Shown: piece after piece, positions 13,842 to 53,971 of the stretch
Layout: each line of letters begins with the position of its first letter
Position numbering within the stretch: position 1 is the stretch's first letter
From: Candidatus Parcubacteria bacterium
GTDB lineage: Bacteria; Patescibacteriota; Minisyncoccia; UBA6257; HR35
Length of the DNA: 64,000 nucleotides
Direction of reading: 5' to 3'
NCBI GenBank assembly: GCA_026004535.1
Contig: BPJI01000001.1
Coordinates: forward strand, 79,915-143,914
Position numbers and translations under genes: made by a program
The notes under the pieces: generated by a model
The model's database searches: none
What the model was told of the DNA's origin: nothing
Seen by the model: only the letters and a program-made list of their open reading frames with translations

Positions 13842-15350
13842 TCAACGAGCATATTCAACGGCTCTATTTTCCCTAATGACTACTACCTTGATTTCGCCCG
13901 GAAATTTGACCTCTTTTTCTATTTTTTTAGCTATTTCTTTAGCTAAATTATATATTTCCAAGTCACTTACGAGCTCGGCCTTGACAAAAACCCTTAATTC
14001 TCTACCTCCGGCAGTTGCAAAACATTTTTCCACACCCTCAAAAGAACTAGCTATTTTTTCTAATTGTTGTAATCTCTGAAGATAAATTTCAACAGTTTCC
14101 CTCCGAGCACCGGGACGAGCGCCGGATAGAATATCTGCAGCTAGAACTATGTAAGCATAAGGATTGGCAAAAGGATAAGTTTCATGATGAGATCTCATTC
14201 CTAAAATCACTTCCTCCTCAATGCCATATTTTTCCAAAATTCTAATACCTATTTCCAAATGACTTCCTTCAATATCGTGAGTAACCGCTTTACCAATATC
14301 ATGTAAGAAAGCTGCTTTTTTAGCAATATAAGGATCAAGTCCGAGTTCCTCGGCAATCATCTTGGCAATATAAGCCATCTCAATTGAATGCTGTAAAACA
14401 TTCTGCCCATAACTATATCTAAACTTCAATCTACCCATTAACAGAATAATCTCCTCAGGCAAATCAAAAAGACCAACTTCATAAGCAGCATTCCTGCCAG
14501 CTTCCTCAATCATTTTTTCGATTTCTTCTTTACTCTCGGCAACTTTTTCTTCAATTGTTACTGGGTTAATTCTCCCATCTTTCATTAGTTTTTCTAAAGC
14601 TAAACGAGCAATTTCTCTTTTGACTGGGTCAAAAGAAGATAAGACAACAACATCGGGCGTTTCATCAATAATAATTTCAACCCCCGTTAAGTTCTCAAAA
14701 TGCTTAATATTTCTCCCCTCCTTACCAATAATTCTTCCTTTCATCTCCTCGTTCGGTAAATTAACAACAGTTGTTGTGATCTCGTTTACAACTGAACGAG
14801 CATAACGAGGTAATGCCTCTAAAATTATTTTTTTAGCTTCTGCCTCAATTTTCTCCTTTTCCTGCTGTTTTAGCTTCATTAATCTCTCTATAATTTCTAC
14901 CTCATTCTCTTTTTCAATTTTCTGAAACAAAATTTTCAAAGCCTCTTCTTTAGTAAAACCACTGATTTTTTCTAGGCTTTTTTCTAAAAATTTTTCTTTT
15001 TCATTTAAAGCCTGAGTTCTTGCTTCTAGTTCTTTATTTTTTTCAATTAGATCTTTCTCTTTCTCAATCAAAGTCATTTCCTTTTCGTCTAAAATATTTT
15101 CTTTTTGACTAATTCTTTTTTCTTTTTCTAAAATATCTTCTAAAATTCTTTCTTTTTCTTTTTTAGCTTCTTCAATAATGATTAGAGATTTTTCTCTAGC
15201 TTCAGCCAAAATAGACTCGGCCTCTTTCCTTTTTAACTCAAGCTCTTCCTCAATTTCTTTTAGTTTGGCTCCCTCTTTTTTAATAATTAATATTTGTCTT
15301 AAAAAATAACCAATTAAAATACCAATTATAAAAACCAAAAAATTAATCAT
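13842..15350 (-). CDS. rny: Ribonuclease Y
   Basis: N-terminal TM, coiled coil, KH domain (GRIIGKEGRNIKHFENLTGVEIIID) and HD domain (HDIGK). Confidence 0.85.
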   Translation of the reverse strand: MINFLVFIIGILIGYFLRQILIIKKEGAKLKEIEEELELKRKEAESILAEAREKSLIIIEEAKKEKERILEDILEKEKRISQKENILDEKEMTLIEKEKDLIEKNKELEARTQALNEKEKFLEKSLEKISGFTKEEALKILFQKIEKENEVEIIERLMKLKQQEKEKIEAEAKKIILEALPRYARSVVNEITTTVVNLPNEEMKGRIIGKEGRNIKHFENLTGVEIIIDETPDVVVLSSFDPVKREIARLALEKLMKDGRINPVTIEEKVAESKEEIEKMIEEAGRNAAYEVGLFDLPEEIILLMGRLKFRYSYGQNVLQHSIEMAYIAKMIAEELGLDPYIAKKAAFLHDIGKAVTHDIEGSHLEIGIRILEKYGIEEEVILGMRSHHETYPFANPYAYIVLAADILSGARPGARRETVEIYLQRLQQLEKIASSFEGVEKCFATAGGRELRVFVKAELVSDLEIYNLAKEIAKKIEKEVKFPGEIKVVVIRENRAVEYAR

Positions 15351-28557: not shown

Positions 28558-28638
28558 GGTGGGGTGGCAGAATGGGATTGCACACGGCTCGAAACCGTGG
28601 GCCTTACGGCCATGTGGGTTCGAATCCCACCCCCACCG
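28558..28638 (+). tRNA. tRNA-Ser(CGA), type II with long variable arm, 81 nt
   Basis: GGTGGGG T GGCAGAATGGGATTGC A CACGG CTCGAAA CCGTG GGCCTTACGGCC ATG GTGGG TTCGAAT CCCAC CCCCACC G. Anticodon CGA. Variable stem GGCC/GGCC. Confidence 0.85.
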
Positions 28639-28776
28639 CACGCAAACAGTTAAAAATAAGTTTGATAAGTACAAAGCAAAGCAAACAGGTGGTAGGGTGA
28701 GAACCCACAGCAACCCAACAAGCTATAAGCACAAACCAGAAACAAGAGAGTAAAGATGTTTTTGAAATTACTAAAT

Positions 28777-28836
28777 ATGTGGTTTACCGTTTTCGAATCT
28801 CATCCCCACTGCACGCAAACAGGTAAAAACAAGCTT
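28777..28836 (+). pseudogene. Decayed duplicate of the tRNA-Ser 3' end plus ~25 nt of its downstream flank
   Basis: atgtggtttaccgttttcgaatctcatccccactgcacgcaaacaggtaaaaacaagctt aligns with 28612..28664 (catgtgggttcgaatcccacccccaccgcacgcaaacagttaaaaataagttt). Confidence 0.5.
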
Positions 28837-37799: not shown

Positions 37800-38231
37800 A
37801 ATATGGGGAAAGCATAAGCCGGGTTTTGTTTTAGCCAATTATCTGTCTTGCGGAGGAAATCGCTTTCCTCCCCTAGCGGCACTCTCGCAAAAGCGAGCAC
37901 GGCCTTGCACCCAAGAAAAGAGAAAGAAGCATTAGTAAATTGCTTTACTATGCCAAAAGGTAGCCAGAAAAAGGATTTTCTGACACCCTTTTGCTTTTCA
38001 CCTTTCCCTGAATTAGCTTCAGGTAGTATTGTCTCTGTTCTTTCTCTTTAGACTTTTCAGCCTAGCGGATTTTTCCGCTTCCCTTACTGGGTGCCCGGAC
38101 TTTCCTCTCCAACCACAGATAAGCACTGATTTAAATATTTTACTGATCAACACAGATTTAATAATCCGTGTTTATCAGTGAGGTTTTTATATCCGTGTTT
38201 ATCCGTAGTCAGAGCAATTGGCTGCTTTCCC
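37800..38231 (-). ncRNA. rnpB: RNase P RNA (bacterial type A-like), ~430 nt with an extended 5' region
   Basis: Minus strand contains GAGGAAAGUCCGGGCAC (CR-I/P4 5' strand, + coordinates ~38093..38109) and AAACCCGGCUUAU (P4 3' strand, ~37814..37826) about 290 nt apart. P1 pairs 5' GGGAAAGCA (38223..38231) with 3' UGCUUUCCC (37806..37814). GC-rich in an AT-rich genome. A promoter lies just upstream. Confidence 0.8.
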
Positions 38232-49903: not shown

Positions 49904-50219
49904 AACCTAAAAGAAATATCGGTAAAAAGACCCAAAAAATAACGAAAAATAAATAAAGAAGGAAAATAAAAAAATAAATCACTAAACCAAAAAATATTCT
50001 TAAAACTCGATAAGGGAAGGCTATTAAATACCCAATAATTGTATGATCACCATAAAGTGGTTTAGTTAAATTTCTTAAATTTGCTTTGACTTTTAAATTT
50101 TTATCAATAAGATAAACCTGGTCAAAGAAATGCCTGATGGTTCTTTGAGGAAAATGATGAAACCAAAAATCTAAAAACTCTATTAAATCATCTAAAATTA
50201 ATGCCCGGAGAATGTTCAT
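49881..50219 (-). CDS. Small membrane protein co-transcribed upstream of the ClpB-like gene
   Basis: Two TM helices (GLVIYFFIFLLYLFFVIFWVFLPIFLLGYGILL). Overlaps the ClpB-like start. Confidence 0.35.
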   Translation of the reverse strand: MNILRALILDDLIEFLDFWFHHFPQRTIRHFFDQVYLIDKNLKVKANLRNLTKPLYGDHTIIGYLIAFPYRVLRIFFGLVIYFFIFLLYLFFVIFWVFLPIFLLGYGILLAK

Positions 50220-51466
50220 TAAAACAATCTTTTTTCTTTTTCTTCGACACTTTCTAATTTAATTATAACTTTACCATATTCACCATCATAACCTGGTTCT
50301 AAAACAATATCTTCACGATCGATTTTTTCTAAAGCTTGAAAAACTAATGGCTCTTGAATTTTCATACTTTCTTTATCATAGTTACCTGTTAAAATTTCCA
50401 ATTCTGGTCCAAAATTTTTAATTAATTCTAAATATTTTATAAAAACTTTTTTTGCTGTTGGTTGAGTATTATAAATTTGAGCCAAAATTTCTAATAAAGG
50501 TGGCGTCCTTTTAAAATTTGGTCTTTGGGTATCATAAAAATCCACTGGTCTTTTAGCTAATTCTTCAACCCTTGACATTACCCCAATAGTTACTTTTTTA
50601 CCACAAACAGGACAAAGATAATTATTTCTCTTTGCTTCCTCTGGAGAAAACCTGATTTTACAAAATCGATGACCATCATAATGATATTTACCTTCCTCTG
50701 GAAAGAATTCGACTGTCAGTAAAATTTTATTTTTATCATCAGGACTCGCCATTGCTTGATAAATATTTTGATAAGATAAATTTTCAACCTCAAATAAGGT
50801 TGCTTCTCTACCTAAACGATGAGTTTGGGGTGAATGAGAATCAGAAAAAGAAACAATAGAAATATTATCAAGTTCAGGAATGCGCCAGTTCATGTTAGGA
50901 TCGCTCGAGAGTCCGGTTTCAACAGCAGTTACATACCTAACATAATCATCAAAAGCATCGTAAATTGAATCAAAACCAGACATTGAACCATATAAAGAAA
51001 ACCATGGAGTCCAAATATGAGCGGGAATGAAAATTGCTTTTTCGTAAATATCAAAGAGAATTTTCATAAAATCAATTACATCTAAACCTAAAATTGGCCT
51101 GCCATCAGAAGCTAAATTACTATAGAGAGAAAGTTTTTTATTTAATTTTTCAACCAAATCAAAACGGGGTAGAATCGCTAAATAATGAATTCTTTTGACT
51201 TTTCCTTGCCGAGAAAAAATTGAACTTATTTCTCCTCCTAAAAGAAAAAAAGTTTCATCATCATTTTTTAATTTATAAACACCATCGCCTGCTTCTTCAA
51301 GTTTTTGCGAAATCTCTTTAAACCACAGAGGGTGAGTAAAATCACCAGTAATTAAAAGTTTTAAGCCTTTAAGTTTGGCGTAGTAATTGAGATTTTCTAA
51401 ATTTAAATCTTTAGAGCAAGCACGAGAATATTTTGAATGTAAATGTAAATCAGCAAAAATTTTCAT
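50219..51466 (-). CDS. PHP-domain protein with internal Cys4 zinc ribbon (TIGR00375-like, EndoQ-like architecture)
   Basis: True start MKIFADLHLHSKYSR (PHP His motif). Later motifs GDFTHP and CPVCGKKVTIGVMSRVEEL. The ORF-track N-terminal extension translates through tRNA-Pro and is spurious. Confidence 0.55.
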   Translation of the reverse strand: MKIFADLHLHSKYSRACSKDLNLENLNYYAKLKGLKLLITGDFTHPLWFKEISQKLEEAGDGVYKLKNDDETFFLLGGEISSIFSRQGKVKRIHYLAILPRFDLVEKLNKKLSLYSNLASDGRPILGLDVIDFMKILFDIYEKAIFIPAHIWTPWFSLYGSMSGFDSIYDAFDDYVRYVTAVETGLSSDPNMNWRIPELDNISIVSFSDSHSPQTHRLGREATLFEVENLSYQNIYQAMASPDDKNKILLTVEFFPEEGKYHYDGHRFCKIRFSPEEAKRNNYLCPVCGKKVTIGVMSRVEELAKRPVDFYDTQRPNFKRTPPLLEILAQIYNTQPTAKKVFIKYLELIKNFGPELEILTGNYDKESMKIQEPLVFQALEKIDREDIVLEPGYDGEYGKVIIKLESVEEKEKRLF

Positions 51467-51470
51467 TTGG

Positions 51471-51544
51471 TCGGGATGGCGGGACTCGAACCCGCAGCCT
51501 CCAGCACCCCATGCTGGTGCGCTAACCAATTGCGCTACATCCCG
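51471..51544 (-). tRNA. tRNA-Pro(GGG), 74 nt
   Basis: Minus strand reads CGGGATG TA GCGC AATTGGTTA GCGC A CCAGC ATGGGGT GCTGG AGGCT GCGGG TTCGAGT CCCGC CATCCCG A. Anticodon GGG. Confidence 0.85.
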
Positions 51545-51756
51545 CATTGAAGTATCTATGGGGACTCGCCCCGAACCAGAGCCTTTGGCACGGTTTCCTG
51601 TACCAGAGTTATCTTCTAACACGATACAGGACCCCAAACCGTGCTCTGCACTGGTTTGGGGCGGGGCGCCCTGCACTGTGCTATGCTCTAGTGCATGGCG
51701 AACCCACAACCTCTGGCACCCCATGCCAGTGCGCTAACCAATTGCGCTATGCCCCG
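51545..51756 (-). other. tRNA-Pro-like 5' two-thirds (58 nt, intact acceptor 5' strand, D and anticodon arms, anticodon GGG) fused to a ~150-nt GC-rich structured element instead of a T arm and acceptor 3' strand
   Basis: Minus strand from 51756 reads CGGGGCA TA GCGC AATTGGTTA GCGC A CTGGC ATGGGGT GCCAG AGGTT GTGGG TTCG, then CCATGCACTAGAGCATAGCACAGTGCAGGGCGCCCCGCCCCAAACCAGTGCAGAGCACGGTTTGGGGTCC... with several mutually exclusive 9-10-bp stems. No matching T-arm or acceptor 3' strand was found. Confidence 0.5.
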
Positions 51757-51990
51757 TTAAAATTTGAATTGGGGTAAATTTTTTAAAATCTCAAGAGATT
51801 GCTTGAAAGAACTAAGATAGGGCTGAACTAATTGGTAACTATAATAAATAATCAAAACTATAACCAACCAATAAAGAATTCTAAAAAAGAAAGAAATTTT
51901 TCGAGCTCGGTTAATGCTTTTCAAAATTCTCAAAGATTCTTTGGAAACTTCCAAATTTTCTTTTAACAACTGCTTTATTTCCTCATCCAT
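51757..51990 (-). CDS. Small TM protein, unknown function
   Basis: 77 aa with a central TM helix (ISFFFRILYWLVIVLIIYYSYQL). Weak support. Confidence 0.3.
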   Translation of the reverse strand: MDEEIKQLLKENLEVSKESLRILKSINRARKISFFFRILYWLVIVLIIYYSYQLVQPYLSSFKQSLEILKNLPQFKF

Positions 51991-52740
51991 TTAAAAATTA
52001 TAACACAATTTAGCTTTCAGGTTTCAGGTTTTTAGCTTCTTAGCTTCAGAGCTTCAAATATTATTATCTTCTAAGGAAAATTTTAATGAGATACGATCTC
52101 GTTAAATTTCTCAATTTTTGAATTTCTTAAGAAATTGAGAAATTAAAATTGATGGGTTTTAAAATAGATTTTTGAGTCATCAAACGACAGTCTAAGATGC
52201 CATAGCGTTTTTTATATAGTCAAATCTTCTCATTTCTACTAACTTAGTGCGGTCGCATCAAGATAGTAGAAGTGGAAATATTCGGACGTACGACGTCCCG
52301 ATATTTATTTTAACACTTGGGTAAGATAATTGTGAAGTCGTTAATTTGTGAACTTGTGAATTTATTAATGAATGAATTTAGTTAATTTTGTATTTTAGCA
52401 AACCTAGGTAAGTTAAAATACGAAAATCTTTAATTTTATCTTTATTAAATGAATGAATTTAAGGTTATCTAATCTCCAAAGTCGTGTTTAGCACGCCATG
52501 GCGTTTTATAGAGGATTATCTAAAATTAGGTTTCGGGTTATTAGCTTCTTAGCTTCTTCATTTTTTAAATTCTACAATCCAAGGTGACGTTTAAAATGCT
52601 ATAGCGTTTTATAGGTAACCTTCTAAAATTAGCTTTTAGGTTTATAGTTTCGAATATTTTTAAAATTTTAAAGCTGAGAAGCTAAGAAGCTGAAAGCTAA
52701 GAAGCTGAAAGCTAAGAAGCTTTTGAATTATTTTGTAGCT
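51991..52740. repeat. Complex repeat region: 8-bp microsatellites (TTCTTAGC / TTTCAGC units), a vapC-like remnant, and three ~150-bp degenerate units sharing GCCATAGCGTTTTATAG. This is the 3' flank of duplicated module copy 2.
   Basis: gctttcaggtttcaggtttttagcttcttagcttcagagcttc at ~52020..52062; a remnant reading ...EIVSH* at ~52065..52100; gccatagcgtttt-type boxes at ~52190, 52492 and 52588; and gctaagaagctgaaa x3 at 52684..52735. Confidence 0.7.
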
Positions 52741-53930
52741 TCATATAAGAGCTTTAATTTCTTGGTCTGATAAGGCACGATTATAGATTCGGACTTCGTC
52801 GATAATACCCTTATAGAATATCCAACAGTTAGCAATTCTGGCTGCAATATACAAATCATTATCCGAAACTTCGTTATTGGTTTGTCCTGTTTGAGTATAG
52901 CTTAAGACCATCCTTATATAAAAACTTCGTACCAAGAGATTTTTTCCAATGTAAATGCCACTAGAATACCATTGGAATTTATATCAGGATATACGGAGGA
53001 TACGAAGAAATAAGGGTTGTACATTATTGGCGTTATTAAAGAATCTTCAAAGGCGTGATGATCCATATATGCCAACCTATATCCTAGACCTGTATTATAT
53101 GCTAGAATAGGATTCACTGTCTTACTTCTGTTGGGTATTCTATCCACACAAATGAAATCATTACTTCGCTACATTTATAGATGGGTTATATAGAATACTT
53201 TCACATAATCATCAACCCCATCAAAACTTAAAGCTTTGCCTACTTTACCATCAACACAGTTAGGCCATTATAAGTGTTCCATTATTTCCATATCCTGATA
53301 ATCTTTAGCTGTACAATCATCAAAACTCCAATAACCTACAAGTCCTTGAGCTTGATCAATTGAAGTCTTTTATTTGTTCCTGCTGCATAAAGATGAGGTA
53401 ATTATCATCCATCATTTTTGAGCTGTGAGACTGAGGATTGCTTCTAATTGAGCTAGTAAGTCATAACTTCCTCCAGCAACAAATGCATAGTAATATGGAG
53501 GTCTATTGATTGGATCAATGAAAAGTCTAGAAAGATTAATGCTTGAAAATTGATTAAAAGGAATAGGAATCCAGCCAGTACCATCAATATTTGTTGGAGT
53601 TGCTGAGCATCTATATGACCAGCCTGAAGGAAGCTGTGGTAATTGACTTATCCATTGACCACAAGTTGATGAAGTATCAGGAAGAGAGATATAGACAACA
53701 TTTGATGAAGCATATTGAAGTTCAGAAAAGGTGCCTTGAGTTTCAAAAAGAATAAGGTCAAATATTTTTTCAAGATTTTTAAGGTCTGAAGTTCTTTGAT
53801 TATCTCTACCTCTTTTAAAGATATCTGCTGGCTTAATGACAACAATTAAGACAGTAGCTAAGATAGCTATTAGAGCTAAGACAACTAAAAGTTCAACTAA
53901 AGTGAAGGATTTATTCATTTTTTTATTCAT
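52741..53930 (-). pseudogene. Type IV pilin-LamG fusion gene, copy 2, more heavily decayed
   Basis: 53412..53930 encodes the same prepilin N-terminus as 11877..12533 (identical over ~150 aa, then diverging). 52741..52935 encodes the LamG C-terminus (IIDEVRIYNRALSDQEIKALI). The middle is broken into 77-aa and 64-aa fragments with indels relative to copy 1. Confidence 0.6.
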
Positions 53931-53971
53931 AATTCTAACTTCTCATCTCTAATTTCCACCTCCAATTTTTG

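What the first reader, a model, noticed from the sequence alone, without database searches (positions are those of the whole stretch)
51545..51756. Second tRNA-Pro(GGG)-like sequence that loses its T arm and acceptor 3' strand into a GC-rich, multiply-stemmed ~150-nt element
Directly upstream of the intact tRNA-Pro(GGG) lies a 58-nt copy of a tRNA-Pro 5' portion (acceptor 5' strand, D arm, anticodon arm with GGG, variable loop, first half of the T stem ending GTGGGTTCG). It is followed by ~150 nt of unusually GC-rich sequence with alternative 9-10-bp pairings. One pairing is CCCCAAACC…GGTTTGGGG and another is GCACGGTTT…AAACCGTGC; these overlap and are mutually exclusive. There is also CCTGTA…TACAGG. 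A GGTTCG direct repeat flanks the extra segment. This could be a tRNA pseudogene disrupted by a small insertion, an unusual intron or insertion within the T loop, or an independent structured RNA. The supplied ORF track mistranslates the area as 116-aa and 76-aa proteins.
Basis: seen in the sequence. Interest (0 to 1): 0.55.

Follow-up and report, generated by a model that had tools for sequence, protein, structure and literature searches.

The report
GC-rich hairpin cluster splitting a spare tRNA-Pro
A spare copy of a proline tRNA gene in an AT-rich, small-genome (CPR) bacterium has been cut in its T loop by a 132-base cluster of GC-rich hairpins, one of two kinds of small insertion that recur at tRNA T loops in this lineage; it is most likely selfish or neutral DNA, not a new RNA gene or an intron.

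Summary
On the minus strand, the first 57-58 nt of a tRNA-Pro(GGG) (51756..51699) are followed by about 150 nt of 57-61% GC sequence in a 29% GC genome.

It is not a working tRNA, not an intron and not a known RNA family. ARAGORN does not call it, Rfam tRNA scores 24.6 bits (cutoff 29), and no other Rfam family matches. The acceptor 3' strand is absent.

The insert (X, 51699..51568) is two abutting hairpins, placed between C56 and G57 of the T loop (TTC^GAGTCCC). The second hairpin carries three more flush hairpins.

A relative (L032) has a 40-nt, two-hairpin version at the same T-loop position, and shares the strings AGGGCGCCCCG and CGGGGCGAGTCCC. Sister lineages lack it.

A second, unrelated 110-130-nt element (U) follows tRNA genes with a repeat of the tRNA 3' end. 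It is found at tRNA-Ser in this window and at tRNA-Pro in four relatives. tRNA T loops are therefore an insertion hot spot here.

Best reading: a palindromic DNA insertion in a redundant tRNA-Pro copy, with function supplied by the intact tRNA-Pro 23 nt downstream. A functional structured RNA is not excluded. Evidence for mobility is thin, resting on 2-3 copies at one locus.

The parts
51700..51756 (-). 5' part (through T-loop C56) of an 'A-type' tRNA-Pro(GGG). Now a gene fragment.
   Evidence: Sequence read. Rfam tRNA 24.6 bits, below the 29-bit cutoff. Not called by ARAGORN. 58/58 identical to the intact tRNA-Pro of L008 when the ambiguous G at 51699 is counted. Starts immediately after the stop codon of the 77-aa ORF, as the resident tRNA does in relatives.
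51668..51699 (-). Insert X, hairpin A (32 nt): GCC-A-TGCACT...AGTGCA-G-GGC.
   Evidence: Inverted repeat I5, 11 nt, 91% complementary. Present in the MFE structures. L032 has a hairpin of different sequence with the same GCC...GGC base in the same place.
51568..51667 (-). Insert X, hairpin B (100 nt), closed by GCCCCG/CGGGGC.
   Evidence: (I1, I3). The same closing stem flanks only an 8-nt interior in L032. The strings AGGGCGCCCCG and CGGGGCGAGTCCC occur only in the window and in L032 among 59 loci.
51632..51661 (-). Nested hairpin h1: CCCCAAACC-A-GTGC AGA GCAC-GGTTTGGGG.
   Evidence: I7, exact 9-nt arms. Pair probability 0.998 when X is folded alone.
51596..51631 (-). Nested hairpin h2: TCCTGTATCG..GTTA GAAGA TAAC..TGGTACAGGA.
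   Evidence: I10, exact 7-nt arms. Present in every predicted fold.
51574..51595 (-). Nested hairpin h3: AACCG-T-GCC AAA GGC-TC-TGGTT. Its 5' arm can alternatively pair with the 3' arm of h1, giving the long-hairpin form.
   Evidence: I6 alternative pairing GCACGGTTT/AAACCGTGC. The three-hairpin form is -69.4 kcal/mol and the long-hairpin form -65.2 kcal/mol.
51560..51567 (-). Remnant of the T loop and T-stem 3' strand (GAGTCCCC). Similarity to the tRNA ends here.
   Evidence: CGAGTCCC matches tRNA positions 57-64. In L032 the same junction continues as an intact tRNA 3' end, GAGTCCCACCATCCCGA.
51545..51559 (-). 15-nt spacer (ATAGATACTTCAATG) before the intact tRNA.
   Evidence: No significant similarity to the upstream flanks of tRNA-Pro in relatives (P=0.22).
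51468..51544 (-). Intact 'B-type' tRNA-Pro(GGG) with an encoded CCA. Supplies the function.
   Evidence: ARAGORN. Rfam tRNA 69.2 bits. The same type sits at this position in most relatives.
50219..51466 (-). Endonuclease Q-family gene. It starts right after the tRNA and was the synteny anchor used to find related loci.
   Evidence: Translation. Homologues named endonuclease Q family, Pfam PF27218.

Best explanation
The 212-nt element is a dead, redundant copy of tRNA-Pro(GGG). Its T loop was split between C56 and G57 by a 132-nt cluster of GC-rich palindromic units, which I call X.

X acts at the DNA level. It is a small non-coding insertion made of hairpin units whose bases are conserved (GCC...GGC, GCCCCG...CGGGGC) and whose interiors vary freely in sequence and length.

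I infer that the units enter at C^GAG of a T-loop-like sequence. Each unit ends in ...GGC, which recreates C^GAG, so further units can land beside or inside earlier ones. This would produce the flush, abutting and nested hairpins that are seen.

The broken copy is tolerated because an intact tRNA-Pro(GGG) lies 23 nt downstream.

Shown: the anatomy, the homologous insert at the identical T-loop position in L032, its absence from sister lineages, and the lack of any tRNA, intron or Rfam signal.

Inferred: that X is (or was) mobile, its insertion-site rule, and that it needs an enzyme supplied in trans that recognises hairpins. One possible history is that X first landed in the harmless tRNA 3'-end repeat behind a U element, as in L032. 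It was then fused to the tRNA 5' part when U was lost by recombination between the two T-loop cores.
For: 1. Not a functional tRNA. ARAGORN is negative, Rfam tRNA scores 24.6 against a cutoff of 29, and the acceptor 3' strand is absent.

2. L032 (EndoQ 84% identical) reads ...TTTTC|GCCCTATCATCCGATAGGGC|GCCCCGTCGAATGACGGGGC|GAGTCCCACCATCCCGA. These are two perfect, abutting 8-bp hairpins at TTC^GAGTCCC. Re-parsed the same way, the window reads GTGGGTTC|hpA|hpB|GAGTCCCC. The two elements share an 11-mer and a 13-mer that occur nowhere else in the window or in 59 loci. Both have exactly 32 nt between TTCG and CCCCG.

3. The left flank differs: a real tRNA 5' half in the window, and the right end of a U element in L032. 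The same site is therefore used in two different contexts.

4. Distribution is patchy on the EndoQ tree. X is in the window and L032 but not in their sisters L008 and L033. A looser double hairpin lies upstream of EndoQ in L010, in another clade.

5. Hairpins are flush and perfect, with no linkers. This is typical of palindromic insertion units and unusual for natural multi-helix RNAs.

6. No Rfam family matches.

7. The locus is demonstrably insertion-prone. The unrelated U element sits at the same tRNA-Pro in L008, L025/27/28 and L036, and at tRNA-Ser in the window.

8. Neutral-site identity to L032 is only 0.52. The 24 shared GC-rich positions are therefore not neutral leftovers; they fit recognition sites conserved at the bases of the hairpins.
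Against: - Only two clear copies and one doubtful copy are known, all at one locus upstream of EndoQ. No further copy exists in the 64-kb window or in the fetched CPR relatives' loci (on the order of 200 kb). Multi-copy status, the hallmark of mobile palindromes, is therefore not shown.
- No transposase, integrase or RAYT was found in the 24 window ORFs scanned.
- There is no target-site duplication beyond an ambiguous CG.
- Conserved stem bases with variable apices equally describe a functional RNA.
- The 58/58 identity of the tRNA 5' part with L008, despite 0.65 identity at 4-fold sites, means the fragment is either very young or still constrained. A long-dead pseudogene is excluded.
- The 3' side (CATAGATAC...) is not what a simple insertion into an intact gene would leave, so at least one further rearrangement must be assumed.
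Confidence: 0.5

Rival explanations
1. X is a functional structured RNA, co-transcribed with the 77-aa ORF, tRNA-Pro and EndoQ. Possible roles are a processing or stability element, or a small RNA with a tRNA-like 5' domain. The conserved bases of its helices and its GC content would be maintained by selection.
For: - Very strong folding: z = -5.7 for the whole element and -6.5 for X.
- GC of 57-61%, equal to the tRNAs, in a 29% GC genome where unselected sequence should decay.
- Stem-base strings conserved with L032 although 4-fold-site identity is 0.52.
- The tRNA 5' part is unchanged relative to L008 (58/58), although about 35% of neutral sites differ.
- Two nearly isoenergetic alternative folds, -69.4 and -65.2 kcal/mol.
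- No terminator lies between the upstream ORF and the tRNA.
Against: - No Rfam family matches.
- X is absent from the sister lineages L008 and L033 and from most relatives, which have the same flanking genes.
- The interiors of the hairpins share no sequence, and their length ranges from 8 to 88 nt.
- In L032 the element sits in a different flank.
- The helices abut with zero-length linkers.
- Covariation cannot be tested with two sequences.
Confidence: 0.2
2. The region is a recombination scar of tRNA-targeted site-specific integration. The partial tRNA and the GAGTCCC remnant would be att-site halves left by integration and excision of elements that use the T loop as core. X would be leftover element DNA or filler, not a unit of its own.
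For: - Break points lie in the T loop, the classical core of tRNA-targeting integrases (general knowledge).
- tRNA 3'-end direct repeats flank the U element at the same locus in L008 (19 nt, perfect), L036 (perfect) and L025 (decayed), and at tRNA-Ser in the window (37/42).
- L029 begins with a decayed tRNA 3' end.
- X shares more 5- and 6-mers with tRNA-Pro on both strands than shuffles do (P = 0.003-0.006). A chained alignment to the tRNA gives P of about 0.012.
Against: - No integrase or phage gene is nearby.
- The upstream tRNA is not restored, as it would be by integrase-type insertion.
- A simple crossover in the T loop cannot produce an A-type 5' half next to a complete B-type gene.
- X in L032 is a clean 40-nt insertion inside an otherwise continuous T-loop remnant. 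That looks like a discrete insertion, not leftover arm DNA.
- There are no matches in phage, plasmid or viral collections.
Confidence: 0.2
3. X is an intron or intervening sequence of a still-functional tRNA-Pro. It would be spliced out, or excised to leave a two-piece tRNA.
For: - The 5' part is perfectly conserved and starts where a tRNA should.
- The MFE fold closes a 5-bp acceptor-like stem, GGGGC/GUCCC, around the insert.
Against: - The sequence after the insert is GAGTCCCCATAGATAC. It has only 3 possible T-stem pairs and no acceptor 3' strand.
- No group I or II signal in Rfam at E<=10.
- Bacterial tRNA introns are group I introns in the anticodon loop (10.1101/2020.01.27.920355, abstract seen).
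- In L032 the insert is not in a gene.
- An intact isoacceptor with the same anticodon lies next door.
Confidence: 0.03
4. Assembly artefact: a chimeric join of two strains' tRNA-Pro genes in a metagenome assembly.
For: - A-type and B-type tRNA-Pro variants coexist in related populations and share 21-nt identical stretches.
- The window's proteins are not on record in the assembly collection, so the contig could not be cross-checked.
Against: - A chimera would give a hybrid tRNA, not 132 nt of novel GC-rich sequence.
- An independent contig from another sample (L032) carries the homologous insert at the same position.
Confidence: 0.03

Closest known systems
REP / BIME / REPIN palindromic elements of bacteria (mobilised by RAYT Y1 transposases)
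   Same: Short GC-rich imperfect palindromes of 20-40 nt. They occur as doublets and clusters, are non-coding, and are recognised as hairpins. Their conserved bases are combined with variable content.
   Different: REPs are present in tens to hundreds of copies, carry a conserved GTAG-type head, and accompany a RAYT gene. Here only 2-3 copies at one locus are known, there is no GTAG, and no RAYT was seen in the ORFs scanned. (The properties of REPs are from my own knowledge.)
Rickettsia palindromic elements (RPE)
   Same: Palindromic insertions of about 100-150 nt in an AT-rich reduced genome. They tolerate or target genes, including a structural RNA gene: one RPE is inserted in the tmRNA gene of R. 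bellii (PMC1458961).
   Different: RPEs number in the hundreds per genome (526 in R. bellii). X is single-copy in all sequence available. There is no sequence relationship.
Mitochondrial double-hairpin elements, GC clusters and PstI palindromes of fungi and algae
   Same: GC-rich hairpin or double-hairpin units in AT-rich genomes. Their presence is optional between close relatives and they are regarded as mobile and recombinogenic (PMC7218506; PMC2670323, listed). The 40-nt form in L032 is literally a double hairpin.
   Different: These belong to organelle genomes and are dispersed at many sites. They are not known to be specific to the T loop.
att sites of tRNA-targeting integrative elements
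   Same: The break is in the T loop, tRNA 3'-end repeats occur at the same locus, and several unrelated insertions use one tRNA gene.
   Different: No integrase or cargo is present. The tRNA is not restored. The insert is 40-132 nt of pure hairpins.
Integron attC sites
   Same: Function is defined by a folded hairpin with short conserved sequences at the base of the stem, while interior sequence and length vary (57-141 nt in attC). This is the same pattern seen between the window and L032. (From my own knowledge.)
   Different: The conserved AAC/GTT core triplets of attC are absent from the X hairpins. There is no cassette ORF and no intI gene.

Membership tests
Functional tRNA gene | Complete cloverleaf detected by tRNA finders, with a covariance score at or above Rfam RF00005 gathering (29 bits) | tested here: not met
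   ARAGORN has no call. Rfam gives 24.6 bits with mismatched acceptor and T arm.
Functional tRNA gene | Acceptor 3' strand complementary to the 5' strand (TGCCCCG), followed by a discriminator | tested here: not met
   Absent downstream. The sequence after the insert is GAGTCCCCATAGATAC.
Group I intron in a bacterial tRNA | Catalytic core detectable by the Rfam intron model; located in the anticodon loop; 3' exon completes the tRNA | tested here: not met
   No intron family at E<=10. The insert is in the T loop and there is no 3' exon.
Archaeal-type (bulge-helix-bulge) tRNA intron | Exons that rebuild a tRNA after excision | tested here: not met
   The 3' side offers 3 T-stem pairs and no acceptor strand.
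Archaeal-type (bulge-helix-bulge) tRNA intron | Splicing endonuclease (EndA) encoded in the genome | not testable with these tools
   Only 64 kb of the genome is available.
Integrase-mediated island or att scar at a tRNA gene | Direct repeats of the tRNA 3' part flanking the inserted DNA, with the upstream tRNA restored | tested here: not met
   Only TTC...GAGTCCC(C) is repeated and the upstream tRNA is not restored. This feature is met by the separate U element.
Integrase-mediated island or att scar at a tRNA gene | Integrase or recombinase gene in or next to the insert | tested here: not met
   Flanking genes are EndoQ, a 77-aa membrane ORF, a ClpB-like ATPase and a pilin-like protein. There is no recombinase domain in 24 ORFs. 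Not every window ORF was scanned.
MITE | Terminal inverted repeats plus target-site duplication | tested here: inconclusive
   Each unit is a palindrome, so its ends are inverted repeats by construction. The duplication is at most the ambiguous CG.
MITE / REP / RPE-like dispersed palindromes | Many copies at different loci in one genome | tested here: not met
   There is one copy in the 64-kb window and one homologue among 59 loci, at the same locus. The rest of the genome could not be searched.
REP / REPIN | Conserved GTAG-type tetranucleotide next to the palindrome, and a RAYT gene | tested here: not met
   No GTAG at the hairpin feet on either strand. No Y1 transposase in the ORFs scanned.
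Known RNA family (Rfam 15) | Covariance-model match | tested here: not met
   Nothing but the partial tRNA at E<=10 for 51400-51850. Nothing for L032 or L010.

The most novel reading that the evidence does not exclude
CPR bacteria of this lineage may harbour a previously undescribed insertion system specific to the tRNA T loop, one that recognises folded hairpins and not linear sequence. X (flush GC-rich hairpin units entering at TTC^GAG) and U would be two substrates or products of this system. U is 110-130 nt and carries an inverted copy of its own target's T arm and acceptor strand. It also creates a direct repeat of 20-42 nt that starts at T54 and runs to a variable point beyond the tRNA 3' end. 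Both would be mobilised in trans by an unidentified enzyme, for example one related to single-strand, structure-specific recombinases or to a target-primed copying mechanism. The variable-length, locally matched repeats and the target-specific inverted copy in U are not what classical integrases or transposases produce.
Probability: 0.2. Interest if true: 0.75.

Novelty: new variant of a known kind. Interest (0 to 1): 0.45.

Why it matters
If X and U are mobile, they would be among the first small non-autonomous elements described in the streamlined genomes of Candidate Phyla Radiation bacteria. They would have an unusual, precise target: the universally conserved T loop of tRNA genes. That would explain pseudo-tRNA fragments and spurious ORFs next to tRNAs in CPR metagenome bins. 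It would also provide natural markers of strain history, and point to an unknown structure-specific recombination activity.

If X is instead only a decaying scar, the practical value is in annotation. The 116-aa and 76-aa ORFs and the long form of the EndoQ ORF should be dropped, and the second tRNA-Pro should be labelled a fragment.

Tried and rejected
- Rfam at gathering and at E<=10 on the element, on the L032, L010 and L029 loci, and on the tRNA-Ser/U region. Only tRNA was found.
- blastn of the insert against phage and plasmid collections. The only hit was a 21-nt chance match.
- Viral-contig pattern scans for X motifs gave none. Scans for U motifs gave one hit inside a capsid gene and 23 hits with no U-like flanks, all chance.
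- Searching for other copies through spurious ORFs in protein space: the plus-strand frame by word index and the minus-strand frame by exhaustive HMMER against 1.8 billion representatives. No hits.
- Exact look-ups of the window's own EndoQ and 77-aa proteins. They are not on record, so strain-level presence/absence of the insert could not be checked.
- An nhmmer profile of the U family does not detect X, so X is not a divergent U.
- X as a scrambled tRNA-Pro. Single local alignments do not exceed shuffles. k-mer sharing and a chained alignment are modestly enriched. I kept this as a minor possibility for the nested part.
- Homology between the spacer upstream of the intact tRNA and the corresponding spacer of L033 was rejected (P = 0.22).
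- The GC-rich patch at 14093-14130 lies in the conserved HD-domain coding sequence of RNase Y and is not another hairpin element.
- SRP RNA, 6S RNA, group II domain V, retron and omega-RNA resemblances were considered from memory. I dropped them for lack of any model hit or of the expected neighbouring gene.
Full report
**What is there**

The window is a 29% GC chromosome segment of a Candidate Phyla Radiation (Patescibacteria/Paceibacteria-like) bacterium. It carries bacterial RNase P RNA, tmRNA and four tRNAs. Homologues of its proteins come from Parcubacteria and Patescibacteria bins.

The finding lies on the minus strand. Reading 5' to 3' in the sense direction, the order is:
- a 77-aa membrane ORF (51990..51757)
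- immediately after its stop codon, the first 57-58 nt of a tRNA-Pro(GGG) (51756..51699)
- about 132 nt of GC-rich sequence
- GAGTCCCC
- a 15-nt spacer
- an intact tRNA-Pro(GGG) (51544..51468)
- two bases later, the start codon of an endonuclease Q-family gene (51466..50219)

**Check of the observation**

- The partial copy is 84% identical to the intact gene over 58 nt, with compensatory differences in the anticodon stem.
- The pairings CCCCAAACC/GGTTTGGGG, GCACGGTTT/AAACCGTGC and TCCTGTA/TACAGGA are exact. The first two overlap.
- GC reaches 0.57-0.61 against 0.29 for the window. No other stretch of this length apart from the tRNA-Ser region exceeds 50%.
- The region folds far better than dinucleotide shuffles: z = -5.68 for 216 nt and z = -6.45 for the insert alone.
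- ARAGORN does not call the partial copy.
- Rfam's tRNA model gives it 24.6 bits, below the 29-bit cutoff. No other Rfam family matches 51400-51850 at E<=10.
- The 116-aa and 76-aa ORFs, and the N-terminal 86 residues of the 501-aa ORF, read across tRNA sequence. They have no homologues.

**Comparison with relatives**

I used the EndoQ gene as an anchor and collected the orthologous locus from about 25 relatives with 70-89% protein identity.

The common state is tmRNA, then the 77-aa ORF, then one tRNA-Pro(GGG), then EndoQ, or alternatively tRNA-Val, tRNA-Pro, EndoQ. In these there is no insert. Most carry a 'B-type' tRNA-Pro (CGGGATG...), like the intact gene of the window.

The closest relative, L008 (89%), carries an intact 'A-type' tRNA-Pro. 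Its first 58 nt are identical to the window's partial copy.

Identity at 4-fold degenerate sites between the two genomes is only 0.65. An unconstrained 58-nt fragment would be expected to have collected many changes. By my own calculation from that figure, the expectation is about 13.6 x f, where f is the unconstrained fraction of the window's branch, so zero changes implies f below about 0.2. The fragment is therefore young, recently acquired or still constrained.

**Anatomy of the insert**

The key relative is L032 (84%). Its contig starts only 87 nt upstream of EndoQ and reads TTGTATCGGCTTACGCCACCATTTTC|GCCCTATCATCCGATAGGGC|GCCCCGTCGAATGACGGGGC|GAGTCCCACCATCCCGA-CAAT-ATG.

The two middle blocks are perfect 8-bp hairpins that abut each other. 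With them removed, the flanks read ...TTTTCGAGTCCCACCATCCCGA. That is a T loop followed by the 3' end of a B-type tRNA-Pro.

The window can be parsed in the same way: GTGGGTTC|GCCATGCACT..AGTGCAGGGC|GCCCCG...CGGGGC|GAGTCCCC.

In both cases the insert (X) lies between C56 and G57 of TTCGAGT; the exact point is ambiguous within a CG dinucleotide. In both it consists of two abutting hairpins with the bases GCC..GGC and GCCCCG..CGGGGC. Both have 32 nt between TTCG and CCCCG.

The shared strings AGGGCGCCCCG and CGGGGCGAGTCCC occur only in these two sequences, among the window and 59 fetched loci. Neutral-site identity between the genomes is 0.52.

The interiors of the hairpins share no sequence.
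- In L032 the second hairpin encloses 8 nt.
- In the window it encloses 88 nt, which themselves form three flush hairpins: 51661..51632, 51631..51596 and 51595..51574.
- The first and third of these are related to each other.
- For X folded alone, the three-hairpin form is -69.4 kcal/mol and the long-hairpin form is -65.2 kcal/mol.

A looser pair of abutting hairpins (GCGCGCC..GGCACGC|CCCG..CGGG) lies upstream of EndoQ in L010, which has no tRNA-Pro there. Its fold is not better than shuffles. I count it only as a possible decayed copy.

**Distribution**

On a neighbour-joining tree of EndoQ, the window pairs with L008 and L032 pairs with L033. These two pairs, together with P0014/L035, form one clade. 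L010 lies in another clade.

X is in the window and L032 but not in their sisters. L008 has a different insert, L033 has a plain tRNA, and L035 has no tRNA at all. X is therefore optional among close relatives.

No other X-like GC hairpin exists in the window or in the related loci. Every other segment with at least 70% GC over 30 nt is a tRNA or coding sequence.

**A second element at the same hot spot**

A blastn of the L008 insert hit the window next to tRNA-Ser(CGA). This led to a family I call U, of 110-130 nt. It follows an intact tRNA and is itself followed by a direct repeat of the tRNA 3' end beginning at T54 of the T loop.

Members:
- Window tRNA-Ser: repeats at 28619-28660 and 28792-28833, 37/42 identical, extending 20 nt past the tRNA.
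- L008: 19-nt perfect A-type repeat.
- L025, L027 and L028: repeat decayed, mostly by C-to-T changes.
- L036: perfect B-type repeat.
- L032: the left flank aligns with the right end of U.

The members align along their whole length. A profile built from them finds only themselves. There is no Rfam match.

Each member begins with an inverted copy of its own tRNA's T arm and acceptor 3' strand:
- GGGCGCAGTGGG opposite CCCACTGCCCC
- GATGGTGGG opposite CCCACCATC
- GGTGGTAGGGTG opposite CCCACCCCCACC

RNAalifold pairs this inverted copy with the tRNA 3' region. It also pairs the conserved CGAAAGCGTAAA with the right junction TTTACCGTTTTCG.

I did not resolve how U arises. It does show that tRNA T loops in this lineage repeatedly receive small insertions. 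It also shows that in L032, X landed in the non-functional repeat behind a U element.

**Interpretation**

The partial tRNA is a gene fragment. The 3' side cannot rebuild a tRNA, and an isoacceptor with the same anticodon sits next to it. X is not an intron and not a known RNA.

I favour a DNA-level palindromic insertion element (confidence 0.5). The grounds are:
- a precise and shared insertion point
- conserved bases of the hairpins with free interiors
- flush abutting and nested units
- different left flanks in the two carriers
- optional presence among relatives
- a locus that demonstrably accumulates insertions

The insertion rule is inference: entry at C^GAG, recreated by each unit's ...GGC end.

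So is the proposed history. In an L032-like ancestor (tRNA, then U, then the repeat carrying X), loss of U by recombination between the two T-loop cores would fuse the tRNA 5' part to X, exactly as seen at 51700/51699. The history does not explain why the sequence after GAGTCCC is unrelated to a tRNA 3' end, nor how the A-type and B-type copies came to be adjacent.

The main weakness is copy number. Only two or three copies are known, all at one locus, and no candidate enzyme was found among 24 window ORFs.

**Rivals**

- A functional structured RNA (0.2) fits the GC content, the folding, the conserved stem bases and the unchanged tRNA 5' part. It does not fit the absence of X from sister lineages with identical flanking genes.
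- A recombination scar of T-loop-specific integration (0.2) fits the hot spot and the modest excess of tRNA-like k-mers in X. It does not fit the clean 40-nt insertion in L032.
- Intron (0.03) and assembly artefact (0.03) are unlikely.

**Comparison with known systems**

X works most like bacterial REP/BIME/REPIN palindromes, Rickettsia palindromic elements and the GC-rich hairpin or double-hairpin elements of AT-rich organelle genomes. One Rickettsia palindromic element sits in a tmRNA gene (PMC1458961). The organelle elements are regarded as mobile because they are optional between relatives (PMC7218506; PMC2670323).

Membership in any of these families cannot be claimed. Dispersed multi-copy status, a GTAG head and a RAYT gene were tested as far as the data allow, and were not met.

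The pattern of conserved stem bases with variable interiors also resembles integron attC sites, but the AAC/GTT cores are absent.

**Verdict**

The pseudogene-with-insertion reading is right. The intron reading is wrong. The structured-RNA reading remains open.

The element is a new variant of a known kind, namely small palindromic insertions. Its T-loop specificity and its CPR host are noteworthy. The neighbouring U family is at least as interesting and deserves its own follow-up.

Noticed in passing
window 28558-28833 (+); L008 1704-1836; L025 2373-2503 (identical in L027 and L028); L036 1-106; probably L032 1-26: The 'U' element family (110-130 nt) sits directly after an intact tRNA: tRNA-Ser(CGA) in the window and tRNA-Pro(GGG) in relatives. 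It is followed by a direct repeat of the tRNA 3' end starting at T54 of the T loop. The repeat is 20-42 nt, perfect to decayed, and always matches the local tRNA type. Each copy starts with an inverted copy of its own tRNA's T arm and acceptor 3' strand. The conserved core is ..GAACCCACAGCAACCCAAC..AGCACA..CGAAAGCGTAAA..TTTACCGTTT|TCGA. There is no Rfam match, no viral match and no adjacent recombinase. The mechanism is unknown.
   Followed up: partly
window 51993-52732: Two 66-nt arms made of 8-nt periodic repeats (TTAGCTTC/AGGTTTC type) are inverted relative to each other (73% complementary) and 608 nt apart. Further copies lie at 52526-52570 and 52629-52723. In most relatives the tmRNA gene lies directly upstream of the 77-aa ORF. 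About 2 kb here (51990-53970) is therefore extra; it includes a pilin-like gene and what look like decayed ORFs.
   Followed up: no
L010 1180-1245: A GC-rich pair of abutting hairpins (GCGCGCCAGTTTTACCGGCACGC|CCCGAAGTACAGCAAAGCTGACTACGGG) lies upstream of EndoQ in a relative that has no tRNA-Pro, 77-aa ORF or tmRNA at this locus. It is possibly a decayed X copy at a rearranged junction. Its fold is not better than shuffles (z = -1.0).
   Followed up: partly
L029 1-16: The contig begins with TTGAGTCTTACCATCT, a decayed copy of a tRNA-Pro 3' end, 62 nt upstream of EndoQ. This suggests another insertion, cut off by the contig end, at the same hot spot.
   Followed up: no
window 37800-38154 (-): The RNase P RNA match barely passes the Rfam gathering score (102.5 against 100 bits), consistent with a divergent CPR RNase P RNA.
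   Followed up: no
window 51466-51471 and the orthologous junctions in relatives: The tRNA-Pro 3' end and the EndoQ start codon are 0-4 nt apart in nearly all relatives, so EndoQ is probably expressed from the tRNA transcript. Only the window's copy encodes CCA (GACCAAATG).
   Followed up: no
window 50219-51724 (-), 51387-51737 (+), 51547-51777 (+): These ORF calls are inflated by the GC-rich, stop-poor tRNA and X sequence. The real EndoQ ORF starts at 51466 (415 aa). Database homologues of 435-440 aa (P0008, P0009, P0011) carry a similar N-terminal extension, probably because they read into the sequence immediately upstream of the gene (tRNA, or U and the tRNA-end repeat).
   Followed up: partly
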